Shown here one piece after another: positions 1-50,269 of a stretch of DNA of 64,000 nt (position 1 is its first letter; each line of letters begins with the position of its first letter). The notes under the pieces are model-generated. The model saw nothing but the letters and a program-made list of their open reading frames with translations, searched no databases and was not told where the DNA came from. The position numbers and the translations under genes are program-made. Source of the DNA: a bacterium (lineage in GTDB: Bacteria; Myxococcota_A; UBA9160; UBA6930); NCBI GenBank assembly GCA_024228115.1, contig JAAETT010000177.1, positions 689 to 64,688 on the forward strand, written 5' to 3'.

Positions 1-3000
1 GGTCGACCACCTGCGGGCGGTCGTCGTCAAAGGGCTTGCGCGGGTCCTGCGGCGCATTCGTCTCCTCGCGGCTCCAGAAGCGGCGCGGATCGGCCGCCAC
101 CGCCTCCAGGGTCGCGCCGGCCGGCAGGATCGCCCCGTCCGGAACGACCGTGCGCGGACCGATGCGGACCCCGTCACCCACCTGCGCGCCCGCGCCGATG
201 ACGGCACCGCGTCCCACGTGGACGTCGGCACCCAGCGAGGCACCCTCGCCGACCTTGGCGCCCGACTCGACGCGAACACGGTCGCCGAGCATCGCAGATG
301 CCGAGACGTCGGCCGTCCTTGCGATCTTGACGGCCTCTCCGCGAATCGGCGCCGCCGGGGTCGCGTCCGCGGGCTGCGGCTCCGGCAACGCGGGACTGGG
401 GATCAGCCGAGCGCCCGCGGCCAAGGCCGGGTCGAACCCGGTCAATCCGTCGTGCTCGAAGCCGATGATGTGGGCGAGCTCGTGGGTAACCACGGTCAGC
501 AGGTCGATGCCTGCCACTTCGAAACCATCCGCAGTCTCGACGTCGAATTCACCGTCGTCCGCGGGCGTTTCGTCGATCCACCAGCCGTGGCCAGCCGCAT
601 CGATGTCGATCTCGACGAGCTGCGAAGAAGCCTGGCCGAGCAGCAGCCCCGGTAGATCGACGATCTCGAACCGAACCTCGCTGAGCTCGGCGACGGCGTC
701 TTCGCCGAAGTTCTCGGCCAACCGCGCGATCGCTTCCTCGACCACCGGCGCCAACGCGGTGGGCTCCAGCGAGCCAACCGACGGGCTGTCCGACTGCGGC
801 GCAGAAGCCGCGAGCAGCGGGGAAGGCAACGGCACCGCGGGCGGCGCGACATCCCCCGCCCGAACCTCGGCGAGCAACAGGTTGAAGTCGTCGATGTCGA
901 CGTCCCCGTCTCCATCGAGATCGCTGCCGATGCCGCTGTCCTGACGGTTTCGCAAGTCTGTCGTGAAGAGCGCGAAGTCGGCCTCGCCGACGAGCGCGTC
1001 GTCGTTCAGGTCCGCGAACACGTCACCGATCGTCGACGCCAAGGTCGCCGTCTCGCCTTGGACGGCGGCCAGCGCATCCTCGACCCAGACGCGCGCGGGG
1101 CGATCGTCGGCCGCAGGCGGCGTCGCCTCCGTCGGGTCCAGGAAGGAGAACTCCTCGAGCGAGGTCTCGGACGCAAAGGCGTCGAAGAAGGCGCGCAGCC
1201 CGACGAGACCGATGCCCTGGTCTTGCTCACGCGCGACGTCGAGGGCGTTGCCGAGCAGCAAGTCGACGCCGCCACCGCCCTCGAGAATGTCCCTTCCGGT
1301 GCCACCAATCAAGGTGTCGATGTCGTCGCCACCCAGCAGGATGTCGGCTCCGCCCTCGCCGTTCAGCAAGTCGTCCCCGGCCTCGCCGGCCAGCAGGTCG
1401 TCTCCCTCGCCGCCATTGATCGTGTCCGCTCCCGCACCGCCGAGGATCAGATCGCGGTTCTCTCCGCCGAGCAGTTCATCGGCGCCAGCGCCGCCGTCGA
1501 GGAGGTTCGTGCCCGACCCTCCATCGAGGGCATCCGCGCCCTCCCCGCCCAGCAGCAGGTCGTCGCCCGCGCCGCCGTTGACGACATCGGCGCCGAGGCC
1601 GCCGATCAGGATGTCGGCACCGGTTCCGCCCACCAGGAGGTCTGCGCCGAGGTCGCCGAAGGCGAACACCGAGCGTGTCGCGTCGCTGGCGTCGACGACG
1701 TCGGCGCCCGCGCCGGCCCCGATCCGCAGGTCCTCGATCCGCGCGTCGTGGAAGATCGACTGCAGCACACCCTCGGCCTGGTTCACCGCGACGACTCCAT
1801 CGTTGATGGCGAACCGCTCCGCACGGTGCGTGCCGAGTACCGTCAGCGAGTCTGCGCTGCCGGCATCGTCGGACACCTCGATCGCTGCCTCCACGCTTCC
1901 GTCCCGCGAGAGCTGGACGAGGTACGCGTCGTCGCCGCCGAGACCTCGGAGGGTCACGGTGTCCACCGCGCCGGCCGCATCGGTCGTCGTCAGCGACGGG
2001 AGCTCCCGTACCTCGATCGTGTCCGCACCGGAGGTACCGACGAGTTCGACCTCGCCGGCGAGGGCGTCGGGGGCGAACGTGATCGACGTCGAGGTCAGCG
2101 TGCTGCGCGGCGCCGTGAGCGATCCCCCCAGGTCGATCTGCGAACCGGAGATCTCGACCGAGCCGAGGGTCAGCTCCCTTGCCCAGAGCGCGTCGGCACC
2201 GGCCCCGTCGATCAGCAGCGACGCCGTCCCCGTGGACGGATCGTATTCGATGACGCTCCCGGCCCCGAAGGACAGCCCGCCGAGCGTGTTGTCCGACGCG
2301 GTCGCGAGAAGCAGCCGGCCATCCGAATAGGCGTGAACGGCCGTCACGTCGTCCGCGGTTCCGAGCAAGTCCTGCGAGAAGAACAGCGACGTCGCTCCCG
2401 TGCTGGAGTCGAGTTCGAAGACGTCGCCCGCCCGGTAGGTCTCGCCGTCGATCGTCGCGGTCTGATCCAGCGACAACAGCGGATTGCCGTTCGCCAGGAT
2501 CGTGACCGCGTCGAGATTGGCGGTCGTCCCGAGCACGAACTGCGTCGAGAAGAACGGCGACGCAACCAACGTCTCGGGGTCGAACCTGAAGATGTCGCCC
2601 GGCTGTACCGTGAGCCCCTGGAGTGTCGCCTCCGTCTCGGTCGACATCAGGAAGGTGCCGTTCTCGAGGCGGTGGAAGGCATCGATGTCTTCGTCGTTGC
2701 CCGGCCCGAACAGCGATTCCTCAAAGAGCAGTCCGCCCTGCCCCGTGCCCGGGTCGATCAGCGCGACGTCCCCGTCTGCCGCGAACACGAGCCCGACGGG
2801 CCCGACCTCGCTGCGGGAAACGGCGACACCCGGGAAGCGGTCCAGTGCGGCCTCCTCGGAGGCCGTGATGTCGCCGTCGAGCTGCAGCGTCGTGTCCGCC
2901 GTGATCGTCAGCGAGTCCCCGGCTTCGAGAGAGGTGCCTTCCGCGAAGGTCGCCGAACCGACGTCGATCGACAGCGACTCGTCTGCGCGGAGGCTCACTC

Positions 3001-6000
3001 CATCCGTGACCGACGCATTCCCTGTGACGCTCCACTCGAGGTTCGAGGCTGCTGTCGCGCTCGAGTCTCCGGACGCGATCGCCGAACTCGCCCCGGTGAC
3101 CGACACGTCTTCACCGGCGAGCTCGAAGCCATCGACGAGGAAGAACAGTCCACCATCCACGTCGACGTTGACGTCCCCTCCGACGGAGACCAGGCTGCCG
3201 AGCCCTTCGTCACCGCCGTCCAGCACGACCCCTTGCGCGTCGATCCGGATGCTCGCACGGGCCGGCGCAGAGACGGCATCGAAGAACGAGCCCTCGACCA
3301 ACTCCGTGAGCTCCGACGTCGCCGGATTCCACTCGAGAATGGCACCGCTGTCGATGATCGCGACGCCCGGATCCAGATAGCGTGCGGAACTAACAAAGAG
3401 AAGCCGACCGTCCTCGTAGGCGTGTACAGCGTCGATGGAGCCTTCGCCGATCAGCTCGTACCTTGACGCGTTCGCGATCGCGTCCTCCGCGAAGAACAGC
3501 GAGGCCGTACCGGTCACGATGTCGTACTCGAACACGTCACCCGCCTGGAAGACCTGGCCATCGATCGTGCCGTCGAGCTGTGACGAGATCAGCAGATTCC
3601 CGCTCGGGGCGACGCTGACCGCGTTGACGCCGAAGGTGTCACCGATCTCACCGAGCAAGAGCGCCGTGTCGTCGTTCGGGTCGTAGAGCACGACGGCCCG
3701 GCGATTCACCGTCAGCCCACCGATCGTCACGAGGTTGTTGGCGCTCGAACCGCTGAACGAGAGGACGTATCGGCCGTCGGGCAGCAGGTGGAAGGCGTCG
3801 AGCCCACGGTTGAAGCCCAGCGTCCCGGGGTCGAAGAGCAGCGACGCGGAGTCCGCGACCGGGTCGTAGAAGACGGCCTGGTCGTCGTTGAACAAGAGCC
3901 CGCCGAGCGTCGCCGTACCCGCACCGGCAATCGACAACGCGAGGCCCGGGTCCATCTCGACCGCTTCGGCGAGAAGGGTCGCCCCTCCATCCACCACCAC
4001 GCCGACCGAGGCCGAGATCTCGATGTTGGGCGCGGTGATCGCGGCCCCCTCGTCGAACCCTACGTTGGCCCCGTCGATCGAGACCGATGCGCTCTCGAGG
4101 GAACCACCGACCACTCGCAGATCGTCGCCCGCCGCGTAGTCGGTTCGCCAAGCGACATCGAGCGTCGAACCCTCGATCGTGAGGTCGATGTCCGCATCGA
4201 GCCGGATCGCGACGGCGTCGACCGCGGTGTTCGTGACCGAGAGGTCGTCGTCCTGCGCTTGGATCTCGATCAGCCGGGCTTGAAGCGCGCTGTCGGCCAC
4301 GTCGACCGGACCGGCCGGTGCGGTGACCGTGAGCCTGTCCCCGACGGTCACGCTCGCGCCGTCCATCGAAACGCCCACGCCCGACGGGCCGACCAGGCTC
4401 GTGATCGCGAGAGAATCGGACGCCTCGATCGCCGAGCCCGTTCCGAATTCGACGAAGGCTCCCTGAACCGTCAGCGATCCCTCGGTCGTGACTGCTGCGC
4501 CATCCGTGACCGACACGTCACCGGACACCGACAGGGTCAGGTCCCCTACGATGTCGAGTCGCGTCTGCTCGCCACCGATCGTGATGTTGTCCACGGTCAG
4601 CGACGCGTCGTCGGCCGAGACCTGGAAGCCATCGAGGATCGAAAGGTCGCCGCCTCCCGACGCCACGAGGCTGACGTCCGCGCCGAGTACCCGGAGATCG
4701 CCCTCCCCCGACAGCGTGATGTCGCCCGCCGTGGCCTCGAAGTCCGCATCGATCGCGCGCAGGGAACCGCCGAACGAGACGTTCTGTCCCGTCAGCGCGA
4801 CGCGGCTCGCGTTCGGGCTCAGCGACAGCGCCCCCCACGACCCGGTGATCAGACCCGCATCCAGCACCAGGTTGCCGACCCCGGTGGAGGGATCCCAGCG
4901 CACGACCGCGCCGGTGCTCCAGCTGACGCCCGGAAGCGCGCCGTTGCCGATGGTCGTCATCAGCAGGCTGCCGTCGTCGAGCGCGTGGAGCCCGAAGATG
5001 TTCGAGAACTGATCGCGCGTGAAGGTCTCGCGCGCGAAGTACTTGCTGACCTCGCCCGTCGTCGGGTTCCACTCGAAGGCGTCGCCCCCGAGGAAGCGAA
5101 TGCCGTCGATGTTCGACGTCAGCCTCGACGACATGACCAGGTTGCCGTTCGGCAGCATCGTGACCGCGTCCACGTCCTGGTTCTCGAAGTCGCTGAACAG
5201 GTCCTGGTCGAAGACCAGCGTCGCCGTATCGGTGCGCGGATCGTACGACACGACGTCGCCGTTGCGGAAGTCGAGGCCCCCGAGGGTCGCGTCCTCAGTC
5301 GTCGAGAGCAGGTAGGTCCCGTCACCGACTTCGTGGAACGCATCGATGTTCTCGCCGAGGTCGGCGAATGCCTGTTCGCGGAACAGGATCGAGCTCTCGC
5401 CCGTCACGTCGTCGTGCAGGATCACGTCACCCGCCCCGTAGGGGAGCGTGCCGATCGTGCCGGCGGTGGAGGCGGACAGCGCAAAGCCGTCGCCGTCCCC
5501 GCGCCAGGTCGAGCCTTCCTCGACGCTGACATCGCCACTCGACGTGATCTCCACGTCGCCCACCGCGACGTCGGCGGTGGCCAGCACCTGGACACCCGCC
5601 GCCGTGAGATCGAGCGTGCCTCCGGCGAAGCCCTCGGTCGCCACCACCTCGCCGGTGACGTCGAGAATGATGGTTTGCGCCTCGATGCCGTCCGAGCTGT
5701 CACCTGCGAGTGCCGTCGTCACTCCGCCGACCCCGAGGTCCCCGGCGCGGTACACGTGGAAGACGCCCTCCGAGCCACCTTCCAGGTGGTCCACGTCGAT
5801 CAGGAACGCCTCGCCGGCGGTGCCGATGCCGTCCCGCGCGTACAAGGCGGCGGCCTCGCCCCGAATCTGGGCGCTCCCCCCTCGGTTCAGGATCCGACCC
5901 GACGAAGCGTTCAGCACGATCGCGTGGAGGACCGCGTCCGTATCGACGCCATCCGCAACCGCCTCCGCGACGCTGAGGTCCTGAGTACTCGCGCCGCCGT

Positions 6001-9000
6001 CGGCCGCGACTTCGTTGACATAGCCACTTGCGAGTGCAGTTCGGAGCGTCACCGCCCCCTCGCCGGAGTAGCCACTGTCGAGATCGAGCGGGTTCACCAC
6101 CCCGCCGATGCCGCCGGCCCCGGCCGTCCCTGCGATCAACGTGATGTCGTTGCCGACGACGTCGGCGGCGGGAAGGCTCGGATCGGTTCCGGCCGTCTGG
6201 CCGCTGGCGACCGGATCTTCGGGATCCACCGCATCCGCGCCGTCGAGGATGAACAGCGCCGACTCGAGCCACACGTCCCCGGTTCGAGACAGGATCGTGT
6301 CGACGAGCAGGTTCGCCGAAGTGCCGACGAGCACGACGTCGCCGTTCGCGACCGCCGTGACCCCGCCGAACTCGATGAGCTCCAACGGGTTGTCGACGCT
6401 GCCAATCGAACCGCTCTCAGCGACCAGCACGGCGCCGGAGCTCTGCAGATTGGTGAAGTCGTGATCGAGCCCGTCGACGATGGACCCACCCGTGGGCGCG
6501 GTCAGATGGACGACGCCACCGGAGTAGATCGTCCCGATCTCGAGATCACCAGTCGGTGTGGTCAGATGGATGTCGCCGCGGGCGCGCGCGTTCACCAGGC
6601 CCGACTGCGGGTCGACGATGAAGGGAGCGAGCGCCGTGCCGATCGAGCCGTTGGCGGCTTCGAGCACGAGCTCCCCGGTCGTCAGCGTTCCGGTCAACGC
6701 GAGGTCCCCATCGACCTTCACCCGGACGCTGTCCGTCCCGGCGTCGATGCCGGCCAAGGTCACGTCGTCCTCGGAGCCGAGGTCGACGCGTCCGTCGGCG
6801 GTGATCGTGACCTCGCCACTCGCTCGGATGTCGAAGTCCTCGGCGAGCTGGATCCGCACCGTTTCGATCTGGCCGATCTGGGAACTCGGATCGACGATTG
6901 CGGGGCTCAGCGAGACGCCCGTCGCGCTCTCCGGCACCAGGTCCGTCGCCACCGTGATGGACGTCCCGTCGATGGCGACGATCTCCAGCGCTTCGCCCGC
7001 CGTGTCGTTGAACGACGTGCCTTGGATCTCGAGGAAGCCGCCGACGGCGAACCCGCTGCCGAGCGTCGCACCCGACACCTCGAGGGTGCGCAGATCGGTC
7101 ACGAGCACCTGGATCGCCGCGCCGGTCACGCCGTCGAACGCGATGTAGGTCACGTCTTCGCGCTCCGCCTGTGCCAGCACACCCCTCTGCTCTTCGGTCA
7201 GGGTGATCGGGTCCACCGGACTCGTGTCGATGTCGAACGCGGCTTGCTGTGAGCCGATGCCGGCGCCGTCCACGTCGATCGTCACGTCGACGCCGACGAC
7301 GTTCGGATCCTCGATGTCGACCGTCGTGTCACTGGTCGCGAGCAACAGGCCCGCGCTGTACGTGGTCAACAGCTCGTCCGCGGTCCACTCCCGCGTTCCG
7401 CTCTCGAGGGCGGCAGATTCCTCGGCGGTGAGCGTGTAGGTGAAGTCCGGATCGAAGCTGTCCCCGAAGCTCCCGTAGAAGGCATGCAGCGCGTGGTAGG
7501 CCAGCGTCTCGGCCGCCTCGAGGTCCTCGACCTCGGTCTGCGAGAAGCCGAGGGCGAGCAGGTCGGTCACGGTCGCGTCCGGGAAGGAGAGGACGTGATC
7601 CGGGTCGTAGACGTTGACGCGATAGACGAGCTCGTCGCCGACGGAGAGTCCGGCTGCCGGCAGCGCGTCGCCGACGAGGCCATCGACGGCATCGAAGGTC
7701 AGCAGCTCGCCCGTCGACACGACCGTGAGGCCGTGGTCGCCAGCGATCTCGCTCGCACGGAGCTCGAAGGCTTCGCCCCCGATGCGGTCCGACACCTCGA
7801 TCGTCGACCCGTCGCTCGAGACCACGAACAGCGTCGCGCCGTCTTCGAGGTCCGCGGGTTCGACGCGACTGATGGGGGTGGCGCCGGTCTCGGCCACGAA
7901 GGCCACGAGATCGCCCGTCTCGAGCCCCGCACCCTCGAGCACGATCGTGTCCGCAGCCGGGTCCAGGTCCGCTCCCGGGTCGAACAGCGTCACGGGCAGG
8001 AGCGTCTCGGTCCCGACCAGGTTCAGCAGCGCGAGGCGATCGGAGCCGACCGTGTCCACCGCCAGCGAGAACTGGTCCGTTCCGACGTCGCGGGCGTAGT
8101 AGATCACGCCGCTGTCGAGGCCGACGCCACCTCCCGAATCGCCGCCCCCGTACGCGAGGGCCTCGCCTTCGCTGAAGCCGTGGTCTTCGAGCGTCACGAC
8201 GCCGAACGAATCGAGTAGCGCGACCGCGTCCAGGTCCTCGTCCGCCCCGTCGAAGGATGACCCGTCGAACACGAGGATTGCCGTCGCGGTCCCGTCGGCG
8301 TCATAGGCGACCACGTCGCTGCTGCCGAACGAGAGACCGCCCAACGTGGTGTCGTCGAGGCCTTCGACGGTCAGCAGCAGCAGTTCCGTGTCCCCCACGG
8401 TCAGCACCGACACGCCGTTCACGTTGCGGTCCTGATCGGTGTTGACCGCGGGATCGCTCCCGAAGAGGTCCTCGTCGAACAAGATCGTTGCGGATGCCGG
8501 GGAGCGGTCCCACCGCGCCACGTCGCCATCGCGGATCGTCGCCGACGAGAACTCCAACTCGCCGAGCTCATTGAACCCGATTCGGACGGCGCTCCCGGCG
8601 AGCTCGCCGAGCGTGTCGTCCAGAGTCCCGCGCACCTGGTCGTAGAACTCGTTCAGCGTGTACGTCGTCTGAGGGATGTCCAGACTGCGGCCCGCTCCGG
8701 CGGCGAAGACCGAGAAGCCAGCATTCGGCGTCACCTGGATCTTGTGATTCTCCTTCACGAAGGCGTCGAAGATCGCTCCCCACCCGTCGATGATCGCGTC
8801 AGCGCCGGCCGGACCGCCCTCGAGCCGGGCCTCGATGCCGGTTTGCGTGAAGTCGAGCTGAATCCGAAGCCCGAGGTCGCCCGCCAGGAGAGCCTGGTTG
8901 ATCTGCCCCTCGATCAGTTCGGCCATCTGCTGGCCATCGTTGACGGTGTCGCGGAAGATCGCGTTGCCGATCGTGAACCCGGACACGCCGAGGCGGCTCG

Positions 9001-39000: not shown

Positions 39001-42000
39001 CCTGGCCAGCGGCGAACCCGCTCGTCAGATCGGAGAGGTCGACCCGCTCGAAGTCGAGATCCGGCTCGCCGATCAGATCGTTCGCGACCAAGTCGGAGAG
39101 TCCCGCCAGCCCCGACGCGACGACCTTCTCCAGCGACAGGTTCTCGATGATCAGGTCGCCCAGATCCACGAGGCCGGCCACGATGAACTCGCGCAGCTCG
39201 ACGACACCAGCCTCGAGCCACGCCCCCAAGGCCGGAACCGGATCCGAGAAGTCATCGCGATCGATGAGCCCCGCACCCACCAGCTCCGCCAGCCGTACGA
39301 TCGGCGCTGCCTCCGGGAGAGAGCCATGCTGGTGAGCCGCCGGCTCCTCATCGTCGTGGCCACCCACGAGATCCACGAGCAGGACTTGATCCGCCAGGGT
39401 CTGCGCGAGTCCGGCCTCCTGAAGCTCGAGCAGCGTCGTCAGGCCGGCATCCTGCAGATCCTGGGCCGTCAGCGAAACGAGCAGCAGGTTGTCGACACCG
39501 ACCAGGTCGTTGACGATCAGATCCGTCAGATCCGTGAGCCCCGCATCGATCACATCGCCCACCGAGACCGATGACACCAGATCGAAATCGAAGCGAGAGA
39601 CCAGATCGGCGTCGAGCAGGGACTCGAGCCCGAGCGAGATCGCCTGAATCAGCTCCTGGACGCCGATCACAGTCTCTTCGGCGAAGTCGAGCACGGTGAC
39701 GACCGCGTCGTCCACCAAGCCCGACAGGTCCAATCCGAGATTCGCGACGAAGGCATCCAGGTCTCCGTCCGCGTCGATGTCCTCGAGGCTGATCGCGGTC
39801 GAAAGGTCCGCTTCGGTCCCGAGATTCAGTGCGAGTCCGAAGACCCCGTCCTCGTTCAGGTAGATCTGGTTGCGACCGAGCAGATTCGAAACGGCGAGGT
39901 CGAGGTCTCCGTCGCCGTCGACATCTCCGAGCGCTATGTCCGTCGTGAGGCTCTCATCGACCGGCACGATCAAGCTGAGATCGGTATCGGCGCGAAGCTG
40001 GCCGACCTCTAGCGCCGCCGCATCTCGGCCCGTATCCGTCGACAGGCCCGCATCGACCCAATACGCGCCCATGCGCGTTGCGACCTCGGCTTCGCTCAGC
40101 TGAAGCGCCTCGGTCGCGGTGATCAGCCCTGCCGTCACGACGTCTGTGACGGAGACGAGCTCTGCCTCGAGCAACGCCAGATTGACTGCCGTCTCGAGAT
40201 CCTCGAGCAGATCGGCAGCGGTCACGTTGTCCCGCATCACATCCGATGCCACGGTCACGTCGAGCGTTTGCGAGCCGGCCGCCGTCGCGACATCCAGCGC
40301 GAAGCTGAACTCGGAATCGAGCACGAAATCGCCTTCGAAGGCGCCGAGCACGCTGAACTGCGCGCCGATGACGTCCGCCGTCGCATCAGCGGATTCGAGC
40401 GCCTCGAACACGCGCGTCCCCGTTCGTGAGGCCACGGACAGCTCGAACGGTCGGAGGGAATCCCGCGCCTCGGCCACCTCGAAATTCTCGACGTCGCCGG
40501 CGAAGCGCAGCCCCGTGATGTCTTCGAAGCCCCCGAGACCCGCCACGAGTTTGACGCTCTGGGTCGCGTCGGTGAAGACGTCCTGCACGGAGATGGAGAC
40601 TGTGCCCTGCGGAAAGCCTGCTGCGACGAGCGCCGCGTCGATGGCGTGTTGGAGGTCGGCCTCCAGATCGGCCACGCCGAGATCGAGCTCCCGACCTCGC
40701 AAGTTCGCAGGACCCCCCTTTGGCGGGAGTCCGCGATTGTCGAAGGTGTCCGTGGGATCGATCTCGACCGAGACGACGACCTCGTCGCCGTCGAGCGTCG
40801 TCAACACCAGCGGCAGCGTGAACGAGCCCACCAAGGTGGCCCCGTCTCGCTCGGACGCAACAGCCGAAGCGGCCTCGTCGTTCGCATCGACCGAGGTGAG
40901 GAGGCTCGAGGTGCCAACGGAGAACTGAATCGGGCGGGTCGACACGTCGACCTCGCCTTCGTGCGCGAAATCGAGGCGGCCTTCGGTCGCGTACACCTCG
41001 GAAGAAACGACGACACCGTCTGCGTCCGCGACGACGTCGAAGTCCACGGGATCCACCCCCCGAACGAGCAGCTCGGCGTCCAGCACGGCACGGACATCGT
41101 CGACCAGGTCGGCCGCGCTGCTGTTGTCGGCCGTGTCCTCGGCCCGAACCCGAAGACGCAGCTCGCCGGTCCGCGCGCTGCTGCCGACCGTCTGTCCTTC
41201 GACGAAACCACCGATCTCGAAGGGTGCGAACGCAGGCACCGGGTCGTAGTCGAAGACGTCGTCGAGCACGGCGTCCGCAGCCTCTGCCACATCTTCCAGC
41301 ACTTCGGAAAGCGCGGTCTCGTTCGCCTGCTGGTAGAAGCGGTTCGCCTGCCCGAGGTTTCCCGAAATCACGTCGAGACGACCGTCGCCATCGATGTCTC
41401 CGACCGCGATCGACGTCGTTGCGTCGGGAATGACACCGCCGACGCCGCCTCCGAGGAAGCCGATCTCCTGACCGCTCTCGAAGAAGCTCGGCCCGTCCTC
41501 GCCATCGGCATCGACGGTCTCGTTCAGGTAGAGGCGGTTGAATTGGAGGAAGTTGCCCGCGATCAGATCCTGATCGCCATCGCCGTCGATGTCCGCAAGC
41601 GCGAGCGACGTCGTGAGCGTGTCTTCGGGAGCGATGACCTCGGAACGCCGCCCCACGTCGAACGAGAGGGCCTCATTCGTGTCGAACGCCGCGTCGATCG
41701 CGCCTGTCGGAAGCCCAGCGGCGGCCAGCGCATCGTCCAGCTGCGCTTCGAGATAGGCTTCGAGTTCGTCTGCGGTCGTGAAGCCCAGGGTCGCCGAGCG
41801 GTCGATCGTGACGGTCAACTCGGTCAGCGCACCCTGTGGATCGACCACGCCGATCGTGACGTCCGCAGGATCCGTGAGCTGCAGACCATCCGCCGACAAC
41901 CGCGCCTCGACCTGTTCGGCCGCGACCCGTCCCACGTCGGCCGTCTCGAAGGGCCCATTGAAGACTGGCGAGAAGCGGATCACATCGGTCCACGCCGGAA

Positions 42001-45000
42001 TCGGCTCTTCCCTATCCTCCGCGGGGGTCACGTACTGGGAGGGAGCATCCACTGCGAAACCGACGACCAGACTGCCCGCGGCGTACCCGCGGGCCACCAA
42101 TGCCGCATCGATGGCCGCCTGGAGATCGGCGACGACGTCGAGTCCATCTTCGTTATCGGCGAAGTCGGCGGCGTCGAGAGACACCTCGAAGGTCAGATCT
42201 CCTTCCGTCGGGCTCGTCGCCACGATCTCGAAGCTCAGGCCGGCCACCAGCTCGAAGCCGTCCCGCATCGATTCCACGAGCGAGGCCGCCGAGCCGTCTG
42301 TGTCCACCGCATCGAAGCGGAAGGCGTCGAAGCCTTCCCCTGCGTTGTACAGCAGATTGCGCTGGGTCTCGCTTTCGGCCTCGGCCGCGGAGGCCGAAAC
42401 CGAGAGAACGAAGTCGTCACTCGTCGCGTCGATCCGGACGTCGCCACCCGCCGTCAGCTCCGCTCCGGAGGCCACGTACGCGCGCACCCGGTTGTCGATG
42501 ATCCCCAGGTCGACCGCCGCGCCGAGCGAGAGCAAGCCGTCGTCGACATCGACATCACCGCCGGCGACCGAGAAGATCTCACTGCGGTGCTCGGCGATCG
42601 CGTCGACCTGGCCCGTCGCGCGAACGACAGTGCCTTCGCCGAAGAACGCCTCGCCGGAGTTCCCGATCAGGTTCAGGTTCGCGGCTCCAGCAGCGGCACT
42701 GCTGAACGCGGCTTCCGTGCCGCTGTCGGTGGAGGCGACCACGTCGAGATCCGACAGCGCACGCAACGACAGATCGCCATCGGCGGCCTCGAGGTCGGCA
42801 TGCTTCGTGAAGGCGCGGGTCGCCTTGCGCATCCGGTTCATCGCGAACGAGCCGCCGATCCCGACGTGCTCGGCGAAGACCACGGCCCCCGCGCCAGCGA
42901 CTAGCAGCGTCTCGTCGACGGCGTCGACGCGAATGGCATCCGCGACGACCTTCTGGCTGTCGCGAACGAAGGCCTGCGTGTCGCCGGTCAGGTTGTTGAT
43001 CGCGACATCGGCCGAGAACCCGAAACCGAAGGCCAACGGCCCGCTGACGGTCCCGAAGCCGTCACCCGGTGCCGCCATCAGGTTCAGGTATTCCCGGGAC
43101 GGATCATCGGCAGCGACCTCGCCGCCGGCGTTCGCGCCGGAGACCGACACCGACCAGAGCTCGGCGTCCGCATGCGCATCCAGGGTCAGGGCCCCCGCCG
43201 CACGAACGGACCCCGTCTCGCCCCCCGTCCCCTCGAAGATCAGATCGCCGATGAACGCGCGGGTCGTCGCGTCGACGTCGGTGACGGCCACCGAGGCACC
43301 GACGCCTGCGGTCTCGCCCACCGCGACACCGCCCGCCGTCGTCACGAAACGTGACGCGTCCTCGGCCACGACGGTCACGTCGCCAAGCGAGGTCACCCGT
43401 GCGCGGTCTTCGATCCACGCGAGCGCTTCCTGTCTGGAGGAAACGATCGAGATCGACCCCGCCAGGGCGATCTCGCCAGCCTCGCTGCCGGCTTGCGTCA
43501 GCGCGAGGACCTCGGAGAGGACCTTCGCGTCGACCACGATCTCCGCGCCGATCAGATCGACCCGATCGTCGATCCACGCCAGGGAGCGGTTGCCGAGGAA
43601 GACCCCGTTGAAGTACCCGCCGAAACTCCCTTCCGTTCCGCCGGCCGCGGCACTGACGGTGGCCCCGTCGATGCCCGCGAGGTTCACCATCTCGACGGTG
43701 GCATCGCTCGCAACCCGGACGGTGCCGACCCGCGGAAGCGCCCCGCTCCCGGGCGTCAGGTCTGCCTGGACGGCAGCGACTGCAGTCGACCCCGGCACGA
43801 ACCGGAAACGCCCGGCCCCGGCCTCGACGCCAATCGCGTCTGCCAGCCCGCCATGCTGCTGAGCGAAGGCATCGGAGATCGCGGTAGCGAGCCGCGAGGC
43901 GAACTGCCCGAAGGTCTCAACGCCGTCGAAGAAGTCCTGGGCCAGAAAGAGGTCGACCTCTAGCACGGCGCCAGCGGCCTCCGGAGGGAAGCTCGGGTGG
44001 TCGACGATTACATCGATCCGGAAGCCCCGCCCATCGGGGTTGGGTGCGAACTCGAACCCGCCAGCGGTCAACGCGTCCGCGATTCCGGCGGCGGCGTTCG
44101 GCAGGTCGATGTCGACGATCGTCGTTCCCGCTCCGAAGGCCGACGTGAACGGAGTGGCGTCGGCCACAACGAAGGAGAACAGATCGGAGAGGACCTCGAC
44201 GTCGCCCCCCGCCAACCCGGCATCGACCAACGCGGCATCGACGAGGCCCTGCAGTTCGCCGCGCACACCGGCCAGGCTGGCGCCTCCGCTGCCATCGCGG
44301 AGGATCTCGAACTCGACCGCGTCGCCGCCCGCGGCCGGTGATACCTCGAGACCGATCGCGCTGGCGCGCTGATTGATCTGGGCACCGGGCGCGATCGTCG
44401 CCGCCGCTACGTTGTCGAGCGAGAGCACGTTGACGCCGCCGGCGACGCCAACCGCCGCGCGATCGTCGAGACCTGCGGCCGACTCGACGAAAGTCGTCGC
44501 GCCGAGATCACCGTCGCCGAGCTGGGCTTGGAGGAACGAACCCAGCGGGTCGAGCGCGGCGTCGAGTTCGTCGGTGACGATCTCTCCGGTGCGATAGGCA
44601 TCATCGATCTGATCGGTGCCCGCCGACAAACCCACGCCCGGCAGATCGAGCTCTGGAACGAAGCTCTCGAGGATTGGACGAGGCACCTCCGCGGCCGCCT
44701 CGACATCGAGCGCCGTCCCCGCGTCGATGTAGGCGGCATGCCCCACCGAACTCGTCGCTTGGTTGTCGAAGCGGGACCACGCTACCGCGCCGCCCAGCGA
44801 GCCGAGGTCGGCGTTGCCGGCTCGCGCGCCAGCGGAGACCTGAATCGGGTCGGTCGCCGTGGCCCCGACCGCCACCGTGCCCGCGGCCACGATGTCCGCG
44901 CCGCCGCCGATCAGCGCGGCCGCGTGGTTCTCGCCACCGGCCAGACTCTGCGCGGAACCGAGATTGATGCCGACGTCGAACGCACCGTCGAGGTCGAGCG

Positions 45001-48000
45001 GCTCGACGCGATCGATCGCCTCGACCGCATCGCCGACGACCTCGACCTCGTCCACGACGTCGACCAACGACTCGAGATCGATGGAATTGAGGAAATCGAT
45101 GACCGCATTTACCGCGGGTTCGGCGATCGCGATCGCATCGATGCCTTCGTCCACCGCGCCGAAGCTGCGGGTCAGATTCTCGACGTTGATCGAGTCCGCG
45201 GCGATCGTGACATCACCCGGGGAACGCACCGTGCCAGCGAAGAAGGCCTCGACGATCGAATCGTAGTCACTGACAGCAACGGTCGAGCCGTAGCCCGCGC
45301 CGCCGCCGCCCGCGTAGCCTCCCGAGAGGGCTTGCGTGCGGAAGGTATTCGAACCCGTCGCCTCGGCGAACAGATTCGCGGCCTCGAACGAGGCGCCGGG
45401 CTTCACATCCAAGCGGGCCGCAGTGCGACCCTTGCCGTAGGCCACCGAGACGTTTGCGGCGTCTCCGCTCTCGCCGATCAGCGCAGAGTCCTGGCGATGA
45501 TTCGCGACTCGCGCGGCCGCGGCGCCGTCCGCGTCGACCGCGGCGAAGCTACCTGCCGTCCCGTTGACGAATTGGATCGCTCCCTCGGCACCTTCCTGGA
45601 CCGTGATCGCGTCGGCCACGCCGACCGCCAGGTCGACGGCGGCCTGAAGGTCGGCGATCAGGTCGGAGCTCTCGGCGTTGTCCAGCGTGGTGGTCGGGTC
45701 GACCTCGACCGAGAAGGTCTGAGCGTCGGCCACCAGGTCGAACGCGAAGGCGATGCTGCCCACACGCACCTCGACGTCGACCAGATTCGTGGCCGAGGCG
45801 ATCGTCGAGACGTCCCCGGCCGCTTCGACCGCGGCGCCCGCGTGAACGTGGATCTCTGCGGTCGGCGTCGAACTCCCGTAGGAGACGCCCAGGAATCGAC
45901 CGTTGGTCGTCAGGTCGGCGGACGAATCGGCGTCGGCCCGAATCACGACGTCGCCGTCCGCTCGAATCCGTGCTCCCTCGCGCACCGTCACGCGTGACAG
46001 CGAGGCCGACGAGATCGCCGCCGCGGCGCTCGACAACTCGAACAAACGACCCTCGTCGATGTCGAACTCCAGCTGCGCATCGAGCTGCGAATCGGGATCC
46101 CCGGACGTGTCCGCGAGCTTCGCGATCGACGCGGCCGTCGCGACGGTGACGTTCCCGCCGTAGAGCTGGGAGCCCGCGCCGAGGTCGATCAGCGAGGCCG
46201 TCAGATCGGTCAGGCCGAGCTGGAAGAAGTCGCCGTCCAGCGTCCACGTGAGATCGTCATCGCGCTCGGCCCGAAGCTCGAGGTCGCCGTCCGCGAACGC
46301 CCCATCGCCGTCGGCGCGAACCACGACGCCCGCTCCGAGCTGGATCGTCGGTGCGGCGAGCAGAATCTCACCCGAGGCACCGGTCGACCCCCCCAGCGCG
46401 TCCTCGAGGCGGCTGGAGATCGAGACCCCTTCGGCGACGAAGATGCCCTCGGTCGCCTGCAGCGTGAGGTCTCCGACGCCCAGCCCCCCCAGATCGCCGA
46501 CGATCGTGAGACGGCCCTGGACGGACAGGTCGAGGGTGTCACGCGTGGCGTCGCCATCACCGGAGACGGTGCCGAGGACGAAGTCGCCGGTCTCGACCCG
46601 GACCACGTCGCCGCTCAGCACCAGGTCGACGCCGTCGCCGAGGTCGGCGGGGATCAGCAGGTCGAAGCTCGTGGAGAGGTCCGGATACACGAACTCCGGA
46701 ACGACGCCTCCCGCGACCTTGTTGGGGTCGGTGGTCGCGTCGTCGCCCAGGTCCGGGAACGCGAGATCCGCGTTCTCCCAATCTCGGAAGAGCGAGCGGA
46801 ACGCGGGCCGCAAGAGATCGCTCTCCCACAGCGCGAAGTTCCCGCCGCCCTGTTCGAAGGCGAGATCGGACCAGGCCCCGCTCTCGACGTACCCGTCGAC
46901 GTCGTTCGCGAAGGCGAAATCGGCATCGCGCGAGAGCTCGACGAGAGTCGCCTCCCCTGTCTCCAGGGATACGATCCGGACGGGCCCCGCGACGACGAAG
47001 CCATCCCCGGCGTTGCTGATCTCGACCGCCAGCGAGCCCGTTGAGACGTCGAAACTGCCTAGGCTCTGGAAGGTAAGCTCGACCGTGCCGGTGTCGGAGA
47101 CCGGGACGTCCACCCGTTCACCGACGGGGAAGAAGCGCTGACTGATCGACGCGGTGCCCACCTCGGTGGTGCCGTCCAAGACGCGGTAGGGCACATCGGT
47201 CGCCGGGTCGATCTCGCCCCGCGTCGCCCAGGTGACTTGAACGTCGTACGCACCGGCTGACAGACCGTCGAACGTGACCCGGGTCGTGGAGCTTCCATCG
47301 CCCGGGGCGGCGAAGCGGTACTTCGCCGTCGTCGACGTCAGGTTGTCTTCGCGCCACACGTGATCGCGGTCGATCGACGTGAGCCAGGGGCTCTCGTCGG
47401 CGGGGCGTTGCTCCCGCCCCCCCTCCGACAGGGCCTCGAGAACGTTCGTCGACACGGTCTCGCCCGGGCGCTGAACGGTGGCCGTGAACACGTTCCCGCC
47501 GTGCGCGCCGTGGAGATTCAGCAGGCCGAAATCGTAGGACGGGAGGTCGACCCCTCCCGCGCCCGGCAACGTGATCGCCCCGTCGCCGTCGACATCGATC
47601 CCCAGAATCGACCCGCCGCCATCGGCCAGCCCGACCAGGTTGGTCATCAACCGGCTCAGTTCGCCTTCGACCTCGCCGCCACCGAGCGGGTCGGCTTCGT
47701 GCAAGAGCACGAGCTTGGCGAGCGTGACCGAGTTCCGGTACCCGGCGAACCGGTCCTTGTCGAACTCGACGTTGTCGTTGAGTCGCCCGGCGGCGTCGTC
47801 GTGGAACGCCAGACCCAGACCGGGGTTCTCCGCGACGATCTGCTCGAGTTCGTCGAGGCCGCTCTGCACGTCGGTCCCGGTGAGGGCGTCGAGGGTGTCG
47901 ACGACCGGGCCCACCACGTCGTCGAAGGGAACCGCTCGCGACGCTCCTTCGATGCCGAGGATTTCGTCGAGACGCTCGCGATCTCCCTCCTCGAAGATCG

Positions 48001-50269: not shown

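What the first reader, a model, noticed from the sequence alone, without database searches (positions are those of the whole stretch)
1..50269. A single >50-kb gene hidden on the minus strand and absent from the ORF track
The minus-strand frame whose codon first bases fall on coordinates = 1 mod 3 is open from an in-frame TAG at 50282-50284 down to base 1. Its first ATG is at 50269. That gives 16,756 complete codons with the C-terminus still outside the window. The supplied track lists no ORF in this frame across the whole 50 kb. It instead lists more than 150 shadow ORFs in the other five frames, the longest an antisense ORF of 2,065 aa. All 21 hand translations spread along the region are in this frame and give domain-like protein sequence. 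Bacterial proteins above 10,000 aa are rare, and gene callers often fragment or drop them. This one also combines enzyme-like, adhesin-like and unnamed repeat parts.
Basis: seen in the sequence. Interest (0 to 1): 0.95.

Follow-up and report, generated by a model that had tools for sequence, protein, structure and literature searches.

The report
Giant secreted fibre-protein gene (50 kb)
The window really does hold one uninterrupted gene of at least 16,756 codons for a 1.7-megadalton, cysteine-free, calcium-binding fibre protein with an enzyme-like head; it is an unusually large new member of an already catalogued but barely studied class of giant bacterial surface proteins.

Summary
The minus-strand frame is open from the TAG at 50282-50284 to base 2. 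The first ATG is at 50269, giving 16,756 codons with no stop; the other five frames have 43-462 stops. GC3 is 0.82-0.88 in every 3-kb bin. There are no cysteine codons in frame, against 450-509 TGY triplets in the other two same-strand frames. No DNA repeat exceeds 98 nt or 82% identity, so repeat collapse is unlikely.

The ORF tool omits it only because it does not list ORFs that run off the source.

The product is at least 1.70 MDa with pI about 4. It belongs to the NCBIfam "LEPR-XLL" class of giant proteins. Its parts, in order:
- an N-terminal LEPRxLL motif;
- a metzincin-like domain;
- a His/Asp-rich domain weakly assigned to Zn-phospholipase C;
- about 10,000 aa of stalk, with 68 copies of a ~55-aa repeat, 32 copies of an unnamed alpha/beta module and seven dispersed FG-GAP blades;
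- about 3,300 aa with almost no relatives;
- blade-like repeats, an RTX block, a second HExxH module and a hexapeptide beta-helix.

The C-terminus lies outside the window. The upstream gene is a Sec-secreted, cysteine-rich paralogue of the head.

Head-plus-stalk relatives occur in many phyla. The verdict is a new member of a known kind, of moderate interest. The export route and function are inferred, not shown.

The parts
2..50269 (-). Giant ORF of 16,756 codons, with the ATG at 50269 and an upstream in-frame TAG at 50282-50284. The C-terminus lies beyond base 1. The product is at least 1,702.5 kDa, pI 4.05, with no Cys.
50129..50173 (-). N-terminal LEPR-XLL motif (aa 33-47, LEALEPRILLSA), preceded by an Arg-rich stretch. 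There is no Sec-type hydrophobic core.
   Evidence: NCBIfam NF012209, 29.1 bits against a cutoff of 17; sequence; hydropathy
49370..49897 (-). Alpha/beta metzincin-like domain (aa ~125-300) with HELGHIIGGESH at aa 282-293. The third His is displaced by one residue from the HExxHxxGxxH consensus that the relatives keep.
   Evidence: AF2 model pLDDT ~90 here; family consensus HExGHLLGxxH; Peptidase_M10 or Reprolysin hits in a few relatives; marginal matrixin match of the profile
48710..49345 (-). All-alpha His/Asp-rich core (aa 309-520) starting FKPYTH, weakly assigned to Zn-dependent phospholipase C. H314, D324, D363, D367, H376, H418, D422, H426, N430, H456, E460 and D471 are invariant in the 13-sequence core alignment; H418, D422, H426, N430, H456 and D471 are also invariant in the 41-sequence alignment.
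   Evidence: Pfam PF00882, 27.8 bits against a cutoff of 26.8; 20 of 41 relatives hit it; invariants. Not confirmed by PDB sequence or fold searches.
46700..48709 (-). Rest of the conserved head (aa 521-1190): a helical region followed by a beta-sandwich (aa ~978-1100, Golvesin_C/CBM-like), ending in the conserved motif WENxxxxFPDLGDD.
   Evidence: weak CBM matches only
15869..46051 (-). Stalk, part 1: 68 copies of a ~55-aa repeat (NCBIfam LktA_tand_53 type) in about 20 arrays between aa 1407 and 11467.
   Evidence: NF012206 at up to 112 bits against a cutoff of 50; self-built HMM
21935..45745 (-). Stalk, part 2: 32 copies of an unnamed ~65-aa core (~95-aa period) alpha/beta module between aa 1509 and 9445. 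The main arrays are at aa 2684-4298, 4552-5005, 5847-6618 and 7735-8276.
   Evidence: self-built HMM; AF2 model alpha-beta-beta-alpha-beta-beta-beta, pLDDT 78.9; no Pfam or NCBIfam hit; no significant PDB fold match
37010..41605 (-). Exactly seven FG-GAP/Ca-binding blades, at aa 2889, 2954 | 3445, 3493 | 3787 | 4347, 4398. Inserts of 280-540 aa that carry the alpha/beta modules separate them.
   Evidence: Pfam FG-GAP and FG-GAP_3; motif scan
5870..15868 (-). Poorly conserved region (aa 11,468-14,800), beta-helix-like by sequence. Two sub-domains (aa 12,214-12,482 and 12,575-12,730; window 12824-13630 and 12080-12547) have relatives. aa ~12,750-13,200 have almost none.
   Evidence: no Pfam, NCBIfam or PDB hits; 3 word-index hits; 227 relatives among 1.84 billion representatives; collinear relative L081
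1970..5872 (-). Three clusters of three or four ~55-aa blade-like repeats each (…DAFH.l.dG..L.S…GDv..yDp.tG.as.lF), alternating with beta-helix-like segments (aa 14,800-16,100). Similar blades occur at aa 13,620-14,010.
1235..1672 (-). RTX block of about 15 GGxGxDxLx nonapeptides (aa 16,200-16,345).
   Evidence: Pfam HemolysinCabind 4.5e-23; CyaA RTX chains at 4.5e-25; sequence
434..937 (-). Dockerin-like DLDGDGDVDIDD loop (aa ~16,450) and a ~100-aa module ending in the canonical metzincin motif HELAHIIGFEH (aa 16,597-16,607).
   Evidence: sequence; the same module occurs in P0025 and P0028 and in L081 at 37% identity
95..352 (-). Hexapeptide-repeat left-handed beta-helix segment (aa ~16,640-16,725). 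The ORF then runs off the window.
   Evidence: Pfam Hexapep 7.8e-10; LpxD-type matches
51581..55462 (-). Upstream paralogue of the head (1,293 aa). It has a Sec signal peptide, a predicted mature N-terminus WKPYTH, 39 Cys, and a C-terminal hydrophobic helix plus Arg-rich tail.
   Evidence: collinear BLASTP matches to giant aa 308-1184, 43% identity over the core; sequence; Cys count
50723..51403 (-). Small secreted protein directly upstream, with a C-terminal VPEP-TM-RRRR (PEP-CTERM-like) tail. A second PEP-CTERM protein lies at 56467-57306 (-).
   Evidence: sequence; Pfam PEP-CTERM for 56467-57306; NCBIfam

Best explanation
Window bases 2-50269 (minus strand) are one genuine gene for a protein of at least 16,756 aa and at least 1.70 MDa. 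The protein is very acidic and contains no cysteine. It belongs to the class of giant 'LEPR-XLL domain-containing / tandem-repeat filamentous' proteins. The best-studied members of that class are the Chlorobium chlorochromatii symbiosis proteins Cag_663 and Cag_665.

Shown here: the open frame, the uniform coding signal, the domain order, and the family signatures.

Inferred mechanism: the protein is probably exported unfolded, without passing through periplasmic disulfide chemistry. The most likely route is C-terminus-first through a type-1-like (TolC-dependent) system, after which it folds outside the cell with Ca2+ (RTX block, FG-GAP loops, dockerin-like loop). It would then form a fibre hundreds of nanometres long, made of beta-solenoid repeat arrays interspersed with small alpha/beta modules and a possibly split seven-bladed propeller.

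The conserved N-terminal head probably supplies a hydrolytic activity. It consists of a metzincin-like domain, a His/Asp-rich domain resembling the phospholipase C / P1 nuclease trinuclear-zinc enzymes, and a beta-sandwich. The likely target is the envelope of another cell or a surface, most plausibly a phospholipid or another phosphoester.

The same head also exists next door as a conventional Sec-secreted, disulfide-rich paralogue. The organism therefore appears to deploy one enzymatic module in two ways.
For: Reality of the gene:
- 0 stops in 16,756 codons, against 43-462 in the other frames.
- GC3 of 0.82-0.88 in every bin.
- 0 Cys codons, against 450-509 TGY triplets out of frame. Neighbouring genes have 0.5-4% Cys.
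- No long or near-identical DNA repeats.

Class:
- NF012209 LEPR-XLL at 29.1 bits against a cutoff of 17, and NF012206 at up to 112 bits against a cutoff of 50.
- 68 copies of the ~55-aa repeat.
- The head is conserved at 33-58% identity. 147 loci in the species-representative genome collection encode a relative, and 79 were kept. In 30 of these the head ORF exceeds 4,000 aa and is still open at the edge of the fetched DNA. About 25 of the long ORFs carry the same repeats, most of them 17-25 copies.
- Cag_663 and Cag_665 carry the same N-terminal LEPRxLL domain and are expressed and exported (bioRxiv 10.64898/2026.03.19.712371).

Export inference:
- No Sec-type N-terminus.
- RTX block near the C-terminus.
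- pI 4.05 and no Cys, while the Sec-type paralogue has 39 Cys and Sec-type head-only relatives have 9-19 Cys per ~1,000 aa.

Head enzyme inference:
- Pfam Zn_dep_PLPC just above threshold in the giant and in 20 of 41 relatives.
- Invariant His/Asp/Glu pattern H..D..H and H...E.
- In small relatives and in the paralogue, signal-peptide cleavage would leave W/F-x-P-Y-T-H as the mature N-terminus. This matches the N-terminal Trp zinc ligand of PLC and P1 nuclease (the ligand roles come from my own knowledge of those enzymes).
- The neighbouring genes include a GDSL lysophospholipase-like protein, an alpha/beta hydrolase and an LNS2/HAD protein.
Against: - The C-terminus, and therefore any type-1 secretion signal, lies outside the window.
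- No ABC transporter, membrane-fusion or TolC gene lies in the 13.7 kb upstream or downstream of the related locus L081.
- RTX repeats also occur in relatives that have Sec signal peptides (P0037, P0039), so RTX alone does not prove type-1 export.
- More than 410 aa of extra domains follow the RTX block.
- The phospholipase C assignment is weak. Foldseek found no PDB match at E<=0.001 for a pLDDT-81 model. Profile searches of PDB sequences found no PLC or P1 nuclease. hhalign against PLC and P1 aligned the expected H-x3-D motif, but only at E=0.24 and 0.055.
- In the giant the F309 that starts the domain is internal, so a free N-terminal ligand would require processing.
- No read, transcript or peptide data are available.
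- The source organism is unknown.
Confidence: 0.7

Rival explanations
1. The protein is exported or displayed by a route other than classical type-1 secretion. The N-terminal LEPR-XLL motif would be the recognition or retention signal of a still undescribed pathway. The protein might be held in the envelope until cell contact, as reported for the Chlorochromatium giants.
For: - The LEPRxLL motif is conserved at the extreme N-terminus across phyla.
- No type-1 genes lie in the window.
- Relatives occur in Actinomycetota and Planctomycetota.
- RTX repeats coexist with Sec signals in small relatives.
Against: - Absence of Cys, the acidic pI and a C-terminal RTX block are the classical hallmarks of type-1 substrates.
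- Many long relatives in Actinomycetota lack the LEPR motif, so the motif is not tied to the stalk.
Confidence: 0.3
2. The protein is mainly a contact-dependent toxin or effector delivery fibre in the manner of FhaB/CdiA, rather than an adhesin carrying a surface-acting enzyme.
For: - The long beta-solenoid-like repeat arrays resemble filamentous haemagglutinin shafts (inference from the sequence pattern).
- The Chlorochromatium giants are transferred into the partner cell.
- Distinct C-terminal modules (HExxH, hexapeptide helix) follow the RTX block.
Against: - No TPS domain, pre-toxin motif or immunity-like small gene was detected.
- The conserved part of the family is the N-terminal head, not a variable C-terminal tip.
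- No TpsB-type transporter gene lies in the window.
Confidence: 0.12
3. The 50-kb ORF is an assembly artefact: a chimera or collapse of several shorter repeat-bearing genes.
For: - The source is probably a metagenome and could not be found in any collection.
- In the related contig L081 the homologous region is called as at least 7 separate ORFs.
Against: - No DNA repeat longer than 98 nt or above 82% identity exists to seed a collapse or false join.
- Composition, GC3 and Cys avoidance are uniform.
- A random join keeps the frame only one time in three and would still have to avoid stops.
- In L081 the homology crosses a called-gene boundary with a change of frame. That contig therefore looks like a frameshifted copy of a single gene, not evidence for several genes.
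Confidence: 0.05
4. The ORF is intact but is a silent relic that is not expressed as one polypeptide.
For: An IS66 transposase remnant lies 7 kb upstream. No promoter-like site was found in the 453-bp leader.
Against: A 50-kb frame without a single stop or Cys codon, and with a conserved head and conserved repeat registers, implies ongoing purifying selection. Giants of the same class are expressed in Chlorochromatium.
Confidence: 0.04

Closest known systems
LEPR-XLL giant proteins, e.g. Chlorobium chlorochromatii Cag_663 (36,806 aa) and Cag_665 (20,647 aa)
   Same: - An N-terminal ~24-aa LEPRxLL motif without a classical signal peptide.
- A size of tens of kilobases.
- Long repetitive parallel-beta-helix-like regions with Ca2+ sites.
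- Mostly unannotated sequence.

   Different: - The head is different. Here it is metzincin-like plus PLC-like plus beta-sandwich. HK97-like folds, hemolysin and beta-gamma-crystallin domains are reported there.
- No TolC or SapC neighbours were seen here.
- I did not compare the sequences directly.
Type-1-secreted giant RTX adhesins (LapA of Pseudomonas fluorescens, MpIBP of Marinomonas primoryensis, SiiE)
   Same: - A C-terminal RTX nonapeptide block.
- Extreme acidity and lack of Cys.
- A long repetitive extender.
- Ca2+-dependent folding modules.
- A size above a megadalton.
(the properties of LapA and MpIBP come from my own knowledge and)
   Different: - The extender here is not a run of BIg beta-sandwich repeats. 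It consists of ~55-aa solenoid-type repeats plus alpha/beta modules.
- No LapA-type N-terminal retention module was recognised.
- The N-terminus carries enzyme-like domains.
- Secretion genes and the signal were not seen.
Zinc-dependent phospholipase C / S1-P1 nuclease superfamily
   Same: - An all-alpha domain.
- H-x3-D-x3-H and H-x3-E motifs.
- An aromatic residue followed five positions later by His at the start of the domain. In Sec-type relatives this aromatic residue would be the mature N-terminus, as with Trp1.
- Pfam PF00882 just above threshold.

   Different: - No significant sequence or fold match to solved PLC or P1 structures.
- The domain is embedded in a conserved ~900-aa head.
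- In the giant its first residue is internal.
Omnitrophota and other giant genes (West-Roberts et al. 2023)
   Same: A very long single ORF, mostly unannotated, with a proposed role in contacting other cells. It contains dockerin-like and beta-helix elements.
   Different: Those proteins have many transmembrane helices and SecA-like domains and sit near type-2 secretion genes. None of these features is seen here: the maximum 19-residue hydropathy is 2.0 at a single site, and no such Pfam hits were found.

Membership tests
LEPR-XLL domain-containing giant proteins (NCBIfam NF012209) | A ~24-residue LEPRxLL motif at the extreme N-terminus | tested here: met
   aa 33-47 score 29.1 bits against a curated cutoff of 17. 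The sequence is LEALEPRILLSA.
LEPR-XLL domain-containing giant proteins (NCBIfam NF012209) | A very large protein (thousands of residues) | tested here: met
   At least 16,756 aa.
Tandem repeat-containing filamentous protein (NCBIfam NF012206, LktA_tand_53) | Multiple tandem ~53-residue repeats | tested here: met
   Seven of twenty 900-aa tiles score 70.8-112 bits against a cutoff of 50. A self-built HMM finds 68 copies.
Type-1 secretion (RTX) substrates / adhesins | GGxGxDxUx nonapeptide block near the C-terminus | tested here: met
   Pfam PF00353 at 4.5e-23. About 15 repeats at aa 16,205-16,345.
Type-1 secretion (RTX) substrates / adhesins | An uncleaved C-terminal secretion signal | not testable with these tools
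   The C-terminus lies outside the window, and the source contig was not found.
Type-1 secretion (RTX) substrates / adhesins | Cognate ABC transporter, membrane-fusion protein and TolC genes nearby | tested here: not met
   None among the ten genes in 50,285-64,000. The downstream side is unknown, and these genes can be unlinked.
Type-1 secretion (RTX) substrates / adhesins | No Sec signal; acidic; Cys-poor | tested here: met
   No hydrophobic core in aa 1-70. pI 4.05. 0 Cys in 16,756 aa.
Zn-dependent phospholipase C / P1 nuclease superfamily | Significant profile match | tested here: inconclusive
   PF00882 scores 27.8 bits against a gathering score of 26.8, covering profile positions 1-99 of 167. 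20 of 41 relatives hit it, best E 4.4e-7. No PDB sequence hit. hhalign E=0.24 and 0.055.
Zn-dependent phospholipase C / P1 nuclease superfamily | All-alpha fold superposable on PLC or P1 | tested here: inconclusive
Zn-dependent phospholipase C / P1 nuclease superfamily | The free N-terminal aromatic residue (Trp1) acts as a metal ligand | tested here: inconclusive
   By prediction this is met in the paralogue (…SGA|WKPYTH) and in P0037 and P0039 (…A|FEPYTH). In the giant F309 is internal, so proteolytic processing would be needed.
Metzincin metalloproteases (M10-like) | HExxHxxGxxH zinc motif | tested here: inconclusive
   The N-terminal copy, HELGHIIGGESH, has the third His shifted by one residue. 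The family consensus and the C-terminal copy HELAHIIGFEH are canonical. There is no Pfam M10 hit in the giant itself. The Met-turn was not examined.
Two-partner secretion exoproteins (FhaB/CdiA) | An N-terminal TPS domain and a neighbouring TpsB transporter | tested here: not met
   No such Pfam or NCBIfam hits in the giant or its neighbours.
FG-GAP (integrin-alpha-type) seven-bladed propeller | Seven FG-GAP blades | tested here: inconclusive
   Exactly seven blades were found by motif (Pfam). They are split 2+2+1+2 by inserts of 280-540 aa. Whether they assemble into one propeller was not modelled.

The most novel reading that the evidence does not exclude
The LEPR-XLL motif together with the absolute avoidance of cysteine marks substrates of an undescribed export or retention route for megadalton proteins. 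Activation would be proteolytic. The metzincin-like domain, which sits between the LEPR motif and the conserved …VA|FKPYTH junction, would cut there. One cut would release the fibre from its N-terminal anchor and also create the free N-terminal aromatic residue that a trinuclear-zinc phosphoesterase needs.
Probability: 0.12. Interest if true: 0.7.

Novelty: new member of a known kind. Interest (0 to 1): 0.4.

Why it matters
- At 16,756 or more residues this is among the larger bacterial proteins on record, and the window captures it as one clean frame. That makes it a useful test case for gene callers, which fragment such genes. A related contig, L081, is called as at least seven ORFs.
- It shows what this catalogued but uncharacterised LEPR-XLL class contains: a conserved enzyme-like head found in many phyla, either alone or on stalks of more than 4,000 aa, joined to repeat families that have no structural or functional annotation.
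- Three features give concrete hypotheses about export and activation: no cysteine in 16,756 residues, a cysteine-rich Sec-secreted paralogue next door, and a conserved junction that would need cleavage to mimic the N-terminal metal ligand of phospholipase C or P1 nuclease.
- It does not reveal a new kind of system.

Tried and rejected
- **Finding the source contig or the missing C-terminus.** I scanned genome contigs and metagenome contigs with the last 417 aa. I also ran exact-protein look-ups of two neighbouring genes. Nothing was found, so the stop codon and the organism remain unknown.
- **Homologue search with stalk aa 7735-8734.** No hit. This reflects a limit of the word index, because the same repeats are present in fetched relatives.
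- **Fold match for the alpha/beta module.** The best Foldseek E-value was 0.047, against phage tail and FliD decoration domains. I do not treat this as a match.
- **Mixed-domain alignments for a longer stalk model.** MAFFT mis-registered the rows. Only the single module was modelled, and the fold of the ~55-aa repeat remains inferred.
- **Plasmid collection search with the head.** Only two distant core hits, in Nostoc and Deinococcus.
- **Synteny of the neighbouring genes with the 80 related loci.** None apart from the head paralogue.
- **Promoter, terminator, Rfam and tRNA scans around the start.** Nothing was found.
- **Rejected ideas.** A two-partner secretion exoprotein is unlikely because there is no TPS domain. 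A membrane-anchored giant of the Omnitrophota type is unlikely because there are no transmembrane helices and no SecA-like domain.
Full report
**1. The observation**

The reverse complement of 1-50284 translates into 16,761 codons with one stop, the very first codon (TAG, 50282-50284). The first ATG is at 50269, and the next candidate starts are GTG 50131 and TTG 50107. From 50269 to base 2 there are 16,756 sense codons, and the frame runs off the window. Over the same span the other five frames contain 43-462 stops.

The codon-position signal is flat along the whole length. GC3 is 0.82-0.88, GC2 0.41-0.55 and GC1 0.64-0.76 in all seventeen 3-kb bins. Bulk GC is 0.655-0.705.

The frame contains no cysteine codon. 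The other two same-strand frames hold 509 and 450 TGY triplets, and the neighbouring genes have 0.5-4% Cys. That is independent evidence that the whole 50 kb is read, and selected, in this one frame.

The gene is missing from the ORF list only because the lister omits ORFs that run off the source.

**2. Is it an assembly artefact?**

The internal protein repeats are old and divergent, at 22-47% identity. At the DNA level no repeat exceeds 98 nt or 82% identity. Nothing could therefore drive a collapse or a false join. I could not test read support.

The source contig is absent from the genome and metagenome collections and from the gene-position index. Neither the organism nor the 3' end could be recovered.

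**3. Anatomy, from N- to C-terminus**

- **aa 1-47.** An Arg-rich stretch followed by LEALEPRILLSA, the NCBIfam LEPR-XLL motif (29.1 bits against a cutoff of 17). There is no Sec-type hydrophobic core.
- **aa ~125-300.** A confidently modelled alpha/beta domain ending in HELGHIIGGESH. The family consensus is the metzincin motif HExGHLLGxxH.
- **aa ~292-309.** A linker with pLDDT below 50 (aa ~292-309) leads to the conserved junction …PLxEVA-FKPYTH.
- **aa 309-520.** An all-alpha core with these residues invariant in the 13-sequence core alignment: H314, D324, D363, D367, H376, H418, D422, H426, N430, H456, E460 and D471. Pfam places it in Zn_dep_PLPC just above threshold (27.8 against 26.8 bits), and 20 of 41 relatives do the same.
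- **aa 521-1190.** Helical segments and a beta-sandwich (Golvesin_C/CBM-like, below threshold).
- **aa 1,407-11,467.** 68 copies of a ~55-aa repeat, the NCBIfam LktA_tand_53 "tandem repeat-containing filamentous protein" signature, at up to 112 bits against a cutoff of 50. They alternate with arrays of a second, unnamed module.
- **The unnamed module.** There are 32 copies with a ~65-aa core and a ~95-aa period. A model built with 24 internal paralogues as the alignment folds as alpha-beta-beta-alpha-beta-beta-beta at pLDDT 78.9. It has no significant PDB neighbour.
- **FG-GAP blades.** Exactly seven lie inside the first module region, at aa 2889, 2954 | 3445, 3493 | 3787 | 4347, 4398.
- **aa 11,468-14,800.** No Pfam, NCBIfam or PDB match. 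An exhaustive HMMER search of 1.84 billion representative proteins with aa 12,001-13,200 found only 227 relatives. Nearly all of them match two sub-domains, aa 12,214-12,482 and aa 12,575-12,730.
- **aa 14,800-16,100.** Clusters of ~55-aa blade-like repeats separated by beta-helix-like segments.
- **aa 16,200-16,345.** About 15 RTX nonapeptides.
- **C-terminal end.** A dockerin-like Ca loop, a ~100-aa module ending in the canonical HELAHIIGFEH, and a hexapeptide-repeat beta-helix.
- **Overall.** At least 1,702.5 kDa, pI 4.05. There is no convincing transmembrane helix.

**4. Surroundings**

All likely genes in 50.3-61.8 kb lie on the same strand as the giant gene.

- Directly upstream is a small secreted protein with a VPEP-TM-RRRR tail.
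- Next comes a 1,293-aa protein that is a collinear paralogue of head aa 308-1184, 43% identical over the core. It has a Sec signal peptide whose predicted cleavage leaves WKPYTH as the mature N-terminus. It also has 39 cysteines and a hydrophobic, Arg-rich C-terminal tail.
- Further upstream lie a PEP-CTERM protein, the C-terminal half of an IS66 transposase, a glycosyltransferase, an LNS2/HAD-like protein, an alpha/beta hydrolase and a GDSL lysophospholipase-like protein.
- No type-1 secretion genes, tRNAs, Rfam matches or promoter-like sites were found.

**5. Relatives**

The head has 55 relatives in the protein collection. Several are named "LEPR-XLL domain-containing protein, partial" and come from Burkholderiales, Rhodospirillaceae, Verrucomicrobia and Planctomycetales MAGs. 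One, P0001, is a complete stand-alone protein of 1,360 aa.

A scan of one genome per species found 147 loci, of which 79 were kept. They span Burkholderiales, Planctomycetota, Verrucomicrobiota, Actinomycetota, Acidobacteriota and others, and include the cultured Ramlibacter paludis and Rhizobacter sp. Root404.

- In 30 loci the head ORF exceeds 4,000 aa and is still open where the fetched DNA ends.
- About 25 of the long ORFs carry the ~55-aa repeat, most of them 17-25 copies, and about 10 carry the alpha/beta module.
- The long forms have 0-16 Cys, most of them 0-5.
- The ~1,000-aa head-only forms, mostly from Actinomycetota, have 9-19 Cys.

Small relatives show the junction clearly. P0037 and P0039 have a signal peptide …A|FEPYTH and C-terminal RTX repeats. 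P0036 has LERRVML-FNPYTH and RTX repeats.

A metagenomic contig, L081, is collinear with giant aa 11,429-16,605. There the region is called as at least seven ORFs. Homology crosses a called-gene boundary with a change of frame, so that contig looks like a frameshifted copy of one gene. Its last ORF ends 114 aa after the HExxH module. The true stop of the window's gene is therefore probably not far beyond base 1. This is an inference.

**6. How it probably works**

The steps below are inferred unless marked otherwise.

*Export.* The protein lacks a Sec signal, is extremely acidic, has an RTX block near the C-terminus and contains no cysteine at all. Its Sec-routed paralogue is cysteine-rich. 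This contrast is what one expects if the giant never folds in the oxidising periplasm and is instead threaded out unfolded and folds with extracellular Ca2+. That is the logic of type-1 secretion.

The route is not proven, for four reasons:
- The C-terminal signal lies outside the window.
- No transporter genes are linked.
- RTX repeats also occur in Sec-type relatives.
- More than 410 aa follow the RTX block.

The Chlorochromatium giants carry the same LEPRxLL domain. They are reported to be expressed, to lack known signals, to sit next to TolC- and SapC-like genes, and to be released only on cell contact. An unknown LEPR-linked route is therefore a serious rival.

*Fibre.* The stalk is presumably an extended fibre. 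The ~55-aa repeats have the alternating pattern of a three-rung beta-solenoid, but this is inferred and was not modelled. The alpha/beta modules would be beads or decorations.

*Head.* The head is the only part conserved across phyla, and it also exists as a stand-alone secreted protein. I therefore take it to be the functional end.

*Enzyme assignment.* The His/Asp pattern and the W/F-x4-H start would become the mature N-terminus in Sec-type forms. Both resemble the trinuclear-zinc site of phospholipase C and P1 nuclease, in which Trp1 is a ligand (my own knowledge of those enzymes). The lipid-enzyme neighbours fit a phospholipid target.

The assignment is weak, however. There is no PDB sequence or fold match, and hhalign aligned the H-x3-D motif only at E=0.24 and 0.055. 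In the giant the first residue, F309, is internal. Either the domain works without a free N-terminus or it is released by cleavage at the conserved VA|F junction, possibly by the adjacent metzincin-like domain. This is speculation.

**7. Comparison with what is known, and verdict**

The protein meets the tested criteria of two NCBIfam signatures, LEPR-XLL and the 53-residue filamentous repeat. It resembles type-1 RTX adhesins in composition and in its C-terminal RTX block, but its extender, N-terminus and gene context differ.

It is not a two-partner-secretion exoprotein, because it has no TPS domain. It is not of the Omnitrophota type, because it has no transmembrane helices and no SecA-like domain.

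Proteins above 10,000 aa are uncommon, but they are reported as frequently detected in several phyla. More than 41,000 proteins above 5,000 aa are already in UniProtKB (PMC11573180).

It is a new member of a known kind, and interest is moderate. The points that raise it above routine are these:
- the absolute lack of cysteine;
- the adjacent Sec-type paralogue;
- the dispersed set of seven FG-GAP blades;
- two repeat families and a region of about 3,300 aa with no structural or functional annotation.

Noticed in passing
window 51581-55462 (-): A 1,293-aa paralogue of the giant's head. It has a Sec signal peptide, a predicted mature N-terminus WKPYTH, Cys-rich inserts (39 Cys) and a hydrophobic, Arg-rich C-terminal tail. 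Neither Pfam nor NCBIfam recognises it.
   Followed up: yes
window 37010-41605 (-), giant aa 2889-4420: Exactly seven FG-GAP blades, grouped 2+2+1+2 and separated by 280-540-aa inserts full of alpha/beta modules. They may form one split seven-bladed propeller with looped-out arrays. This was not modelled.
   Followed up: partly
window 38990-39680 (-), giant aa ~3,530-3,760: A Leu/Asp-rich stretch with short L..L..GL.DL-type periodicity between FG-GAP blades 4 and 5. It is unlike the rest of the stalk and matches no family.
   Followed up: no
window 57439-58149 (-): The C-terminal half of an IS66-family transposase (profile positions 197-383 of 387, 189.5 bits), with no start codon. It is a remnant that interrupts the run of same-strand genes.
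   Followed up: partly
window 58150-63943: A run of lipid- or ester-related genes: a macrolide-type glycosyltransferase, an LNS2/HAD-like protein, an alpha/beta hydrolase, and a GDSL lysophospholipase (PlaC/PlaA-like). They may be functionally linked to the phospholipase-like heads.
   Followed up: partly
window 50723-51403 (-) and 56467-57306 (-): Two small secreted proteins with PEP-CTERM-type tails. The first is recognisable only by eye (VPEP-TM-RRRR). Their presence implies an exosortase system in the host.
   Followed up: partly
window 95-352 (-), giant aa ~16,640-16,725: A hexapeptide-repeat (LpxD/acyltransferase-like) left-handed beta-helix near the end of a secreted giant protein. It is unclear whether it is catalytic or only structural. 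The related L081 protein lacks it.
   Followed up: partly
window 9113-15310 (+): An antisense shadow ORF of 2,065 aa, one of three above 1,000 aa. Such ORFs are expected opposite a high-GC3 gene and could be miscalled as genes.
   Followed up: yes
L081 (ENA ERZ25039500 contig_48207), 1-23914: A collinear relative of giant aa 11,429-16,605, called as at least seven separate ORFs. Homology continues across a gene boundary in a different frame. It is probably a frameshifted or error-fragmented giant gene.
   Followed up: partly
window 27895-27951 (-), giant aa 7440-7458: The single most hydrophobic 19-residue stretch (IIDAIFVLALPDFFLSTFV, mean hydropathy 2.0). It contains two Asp and a Pro, so it is probably a buried core rather than a membrane helix.
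   Followed up: no
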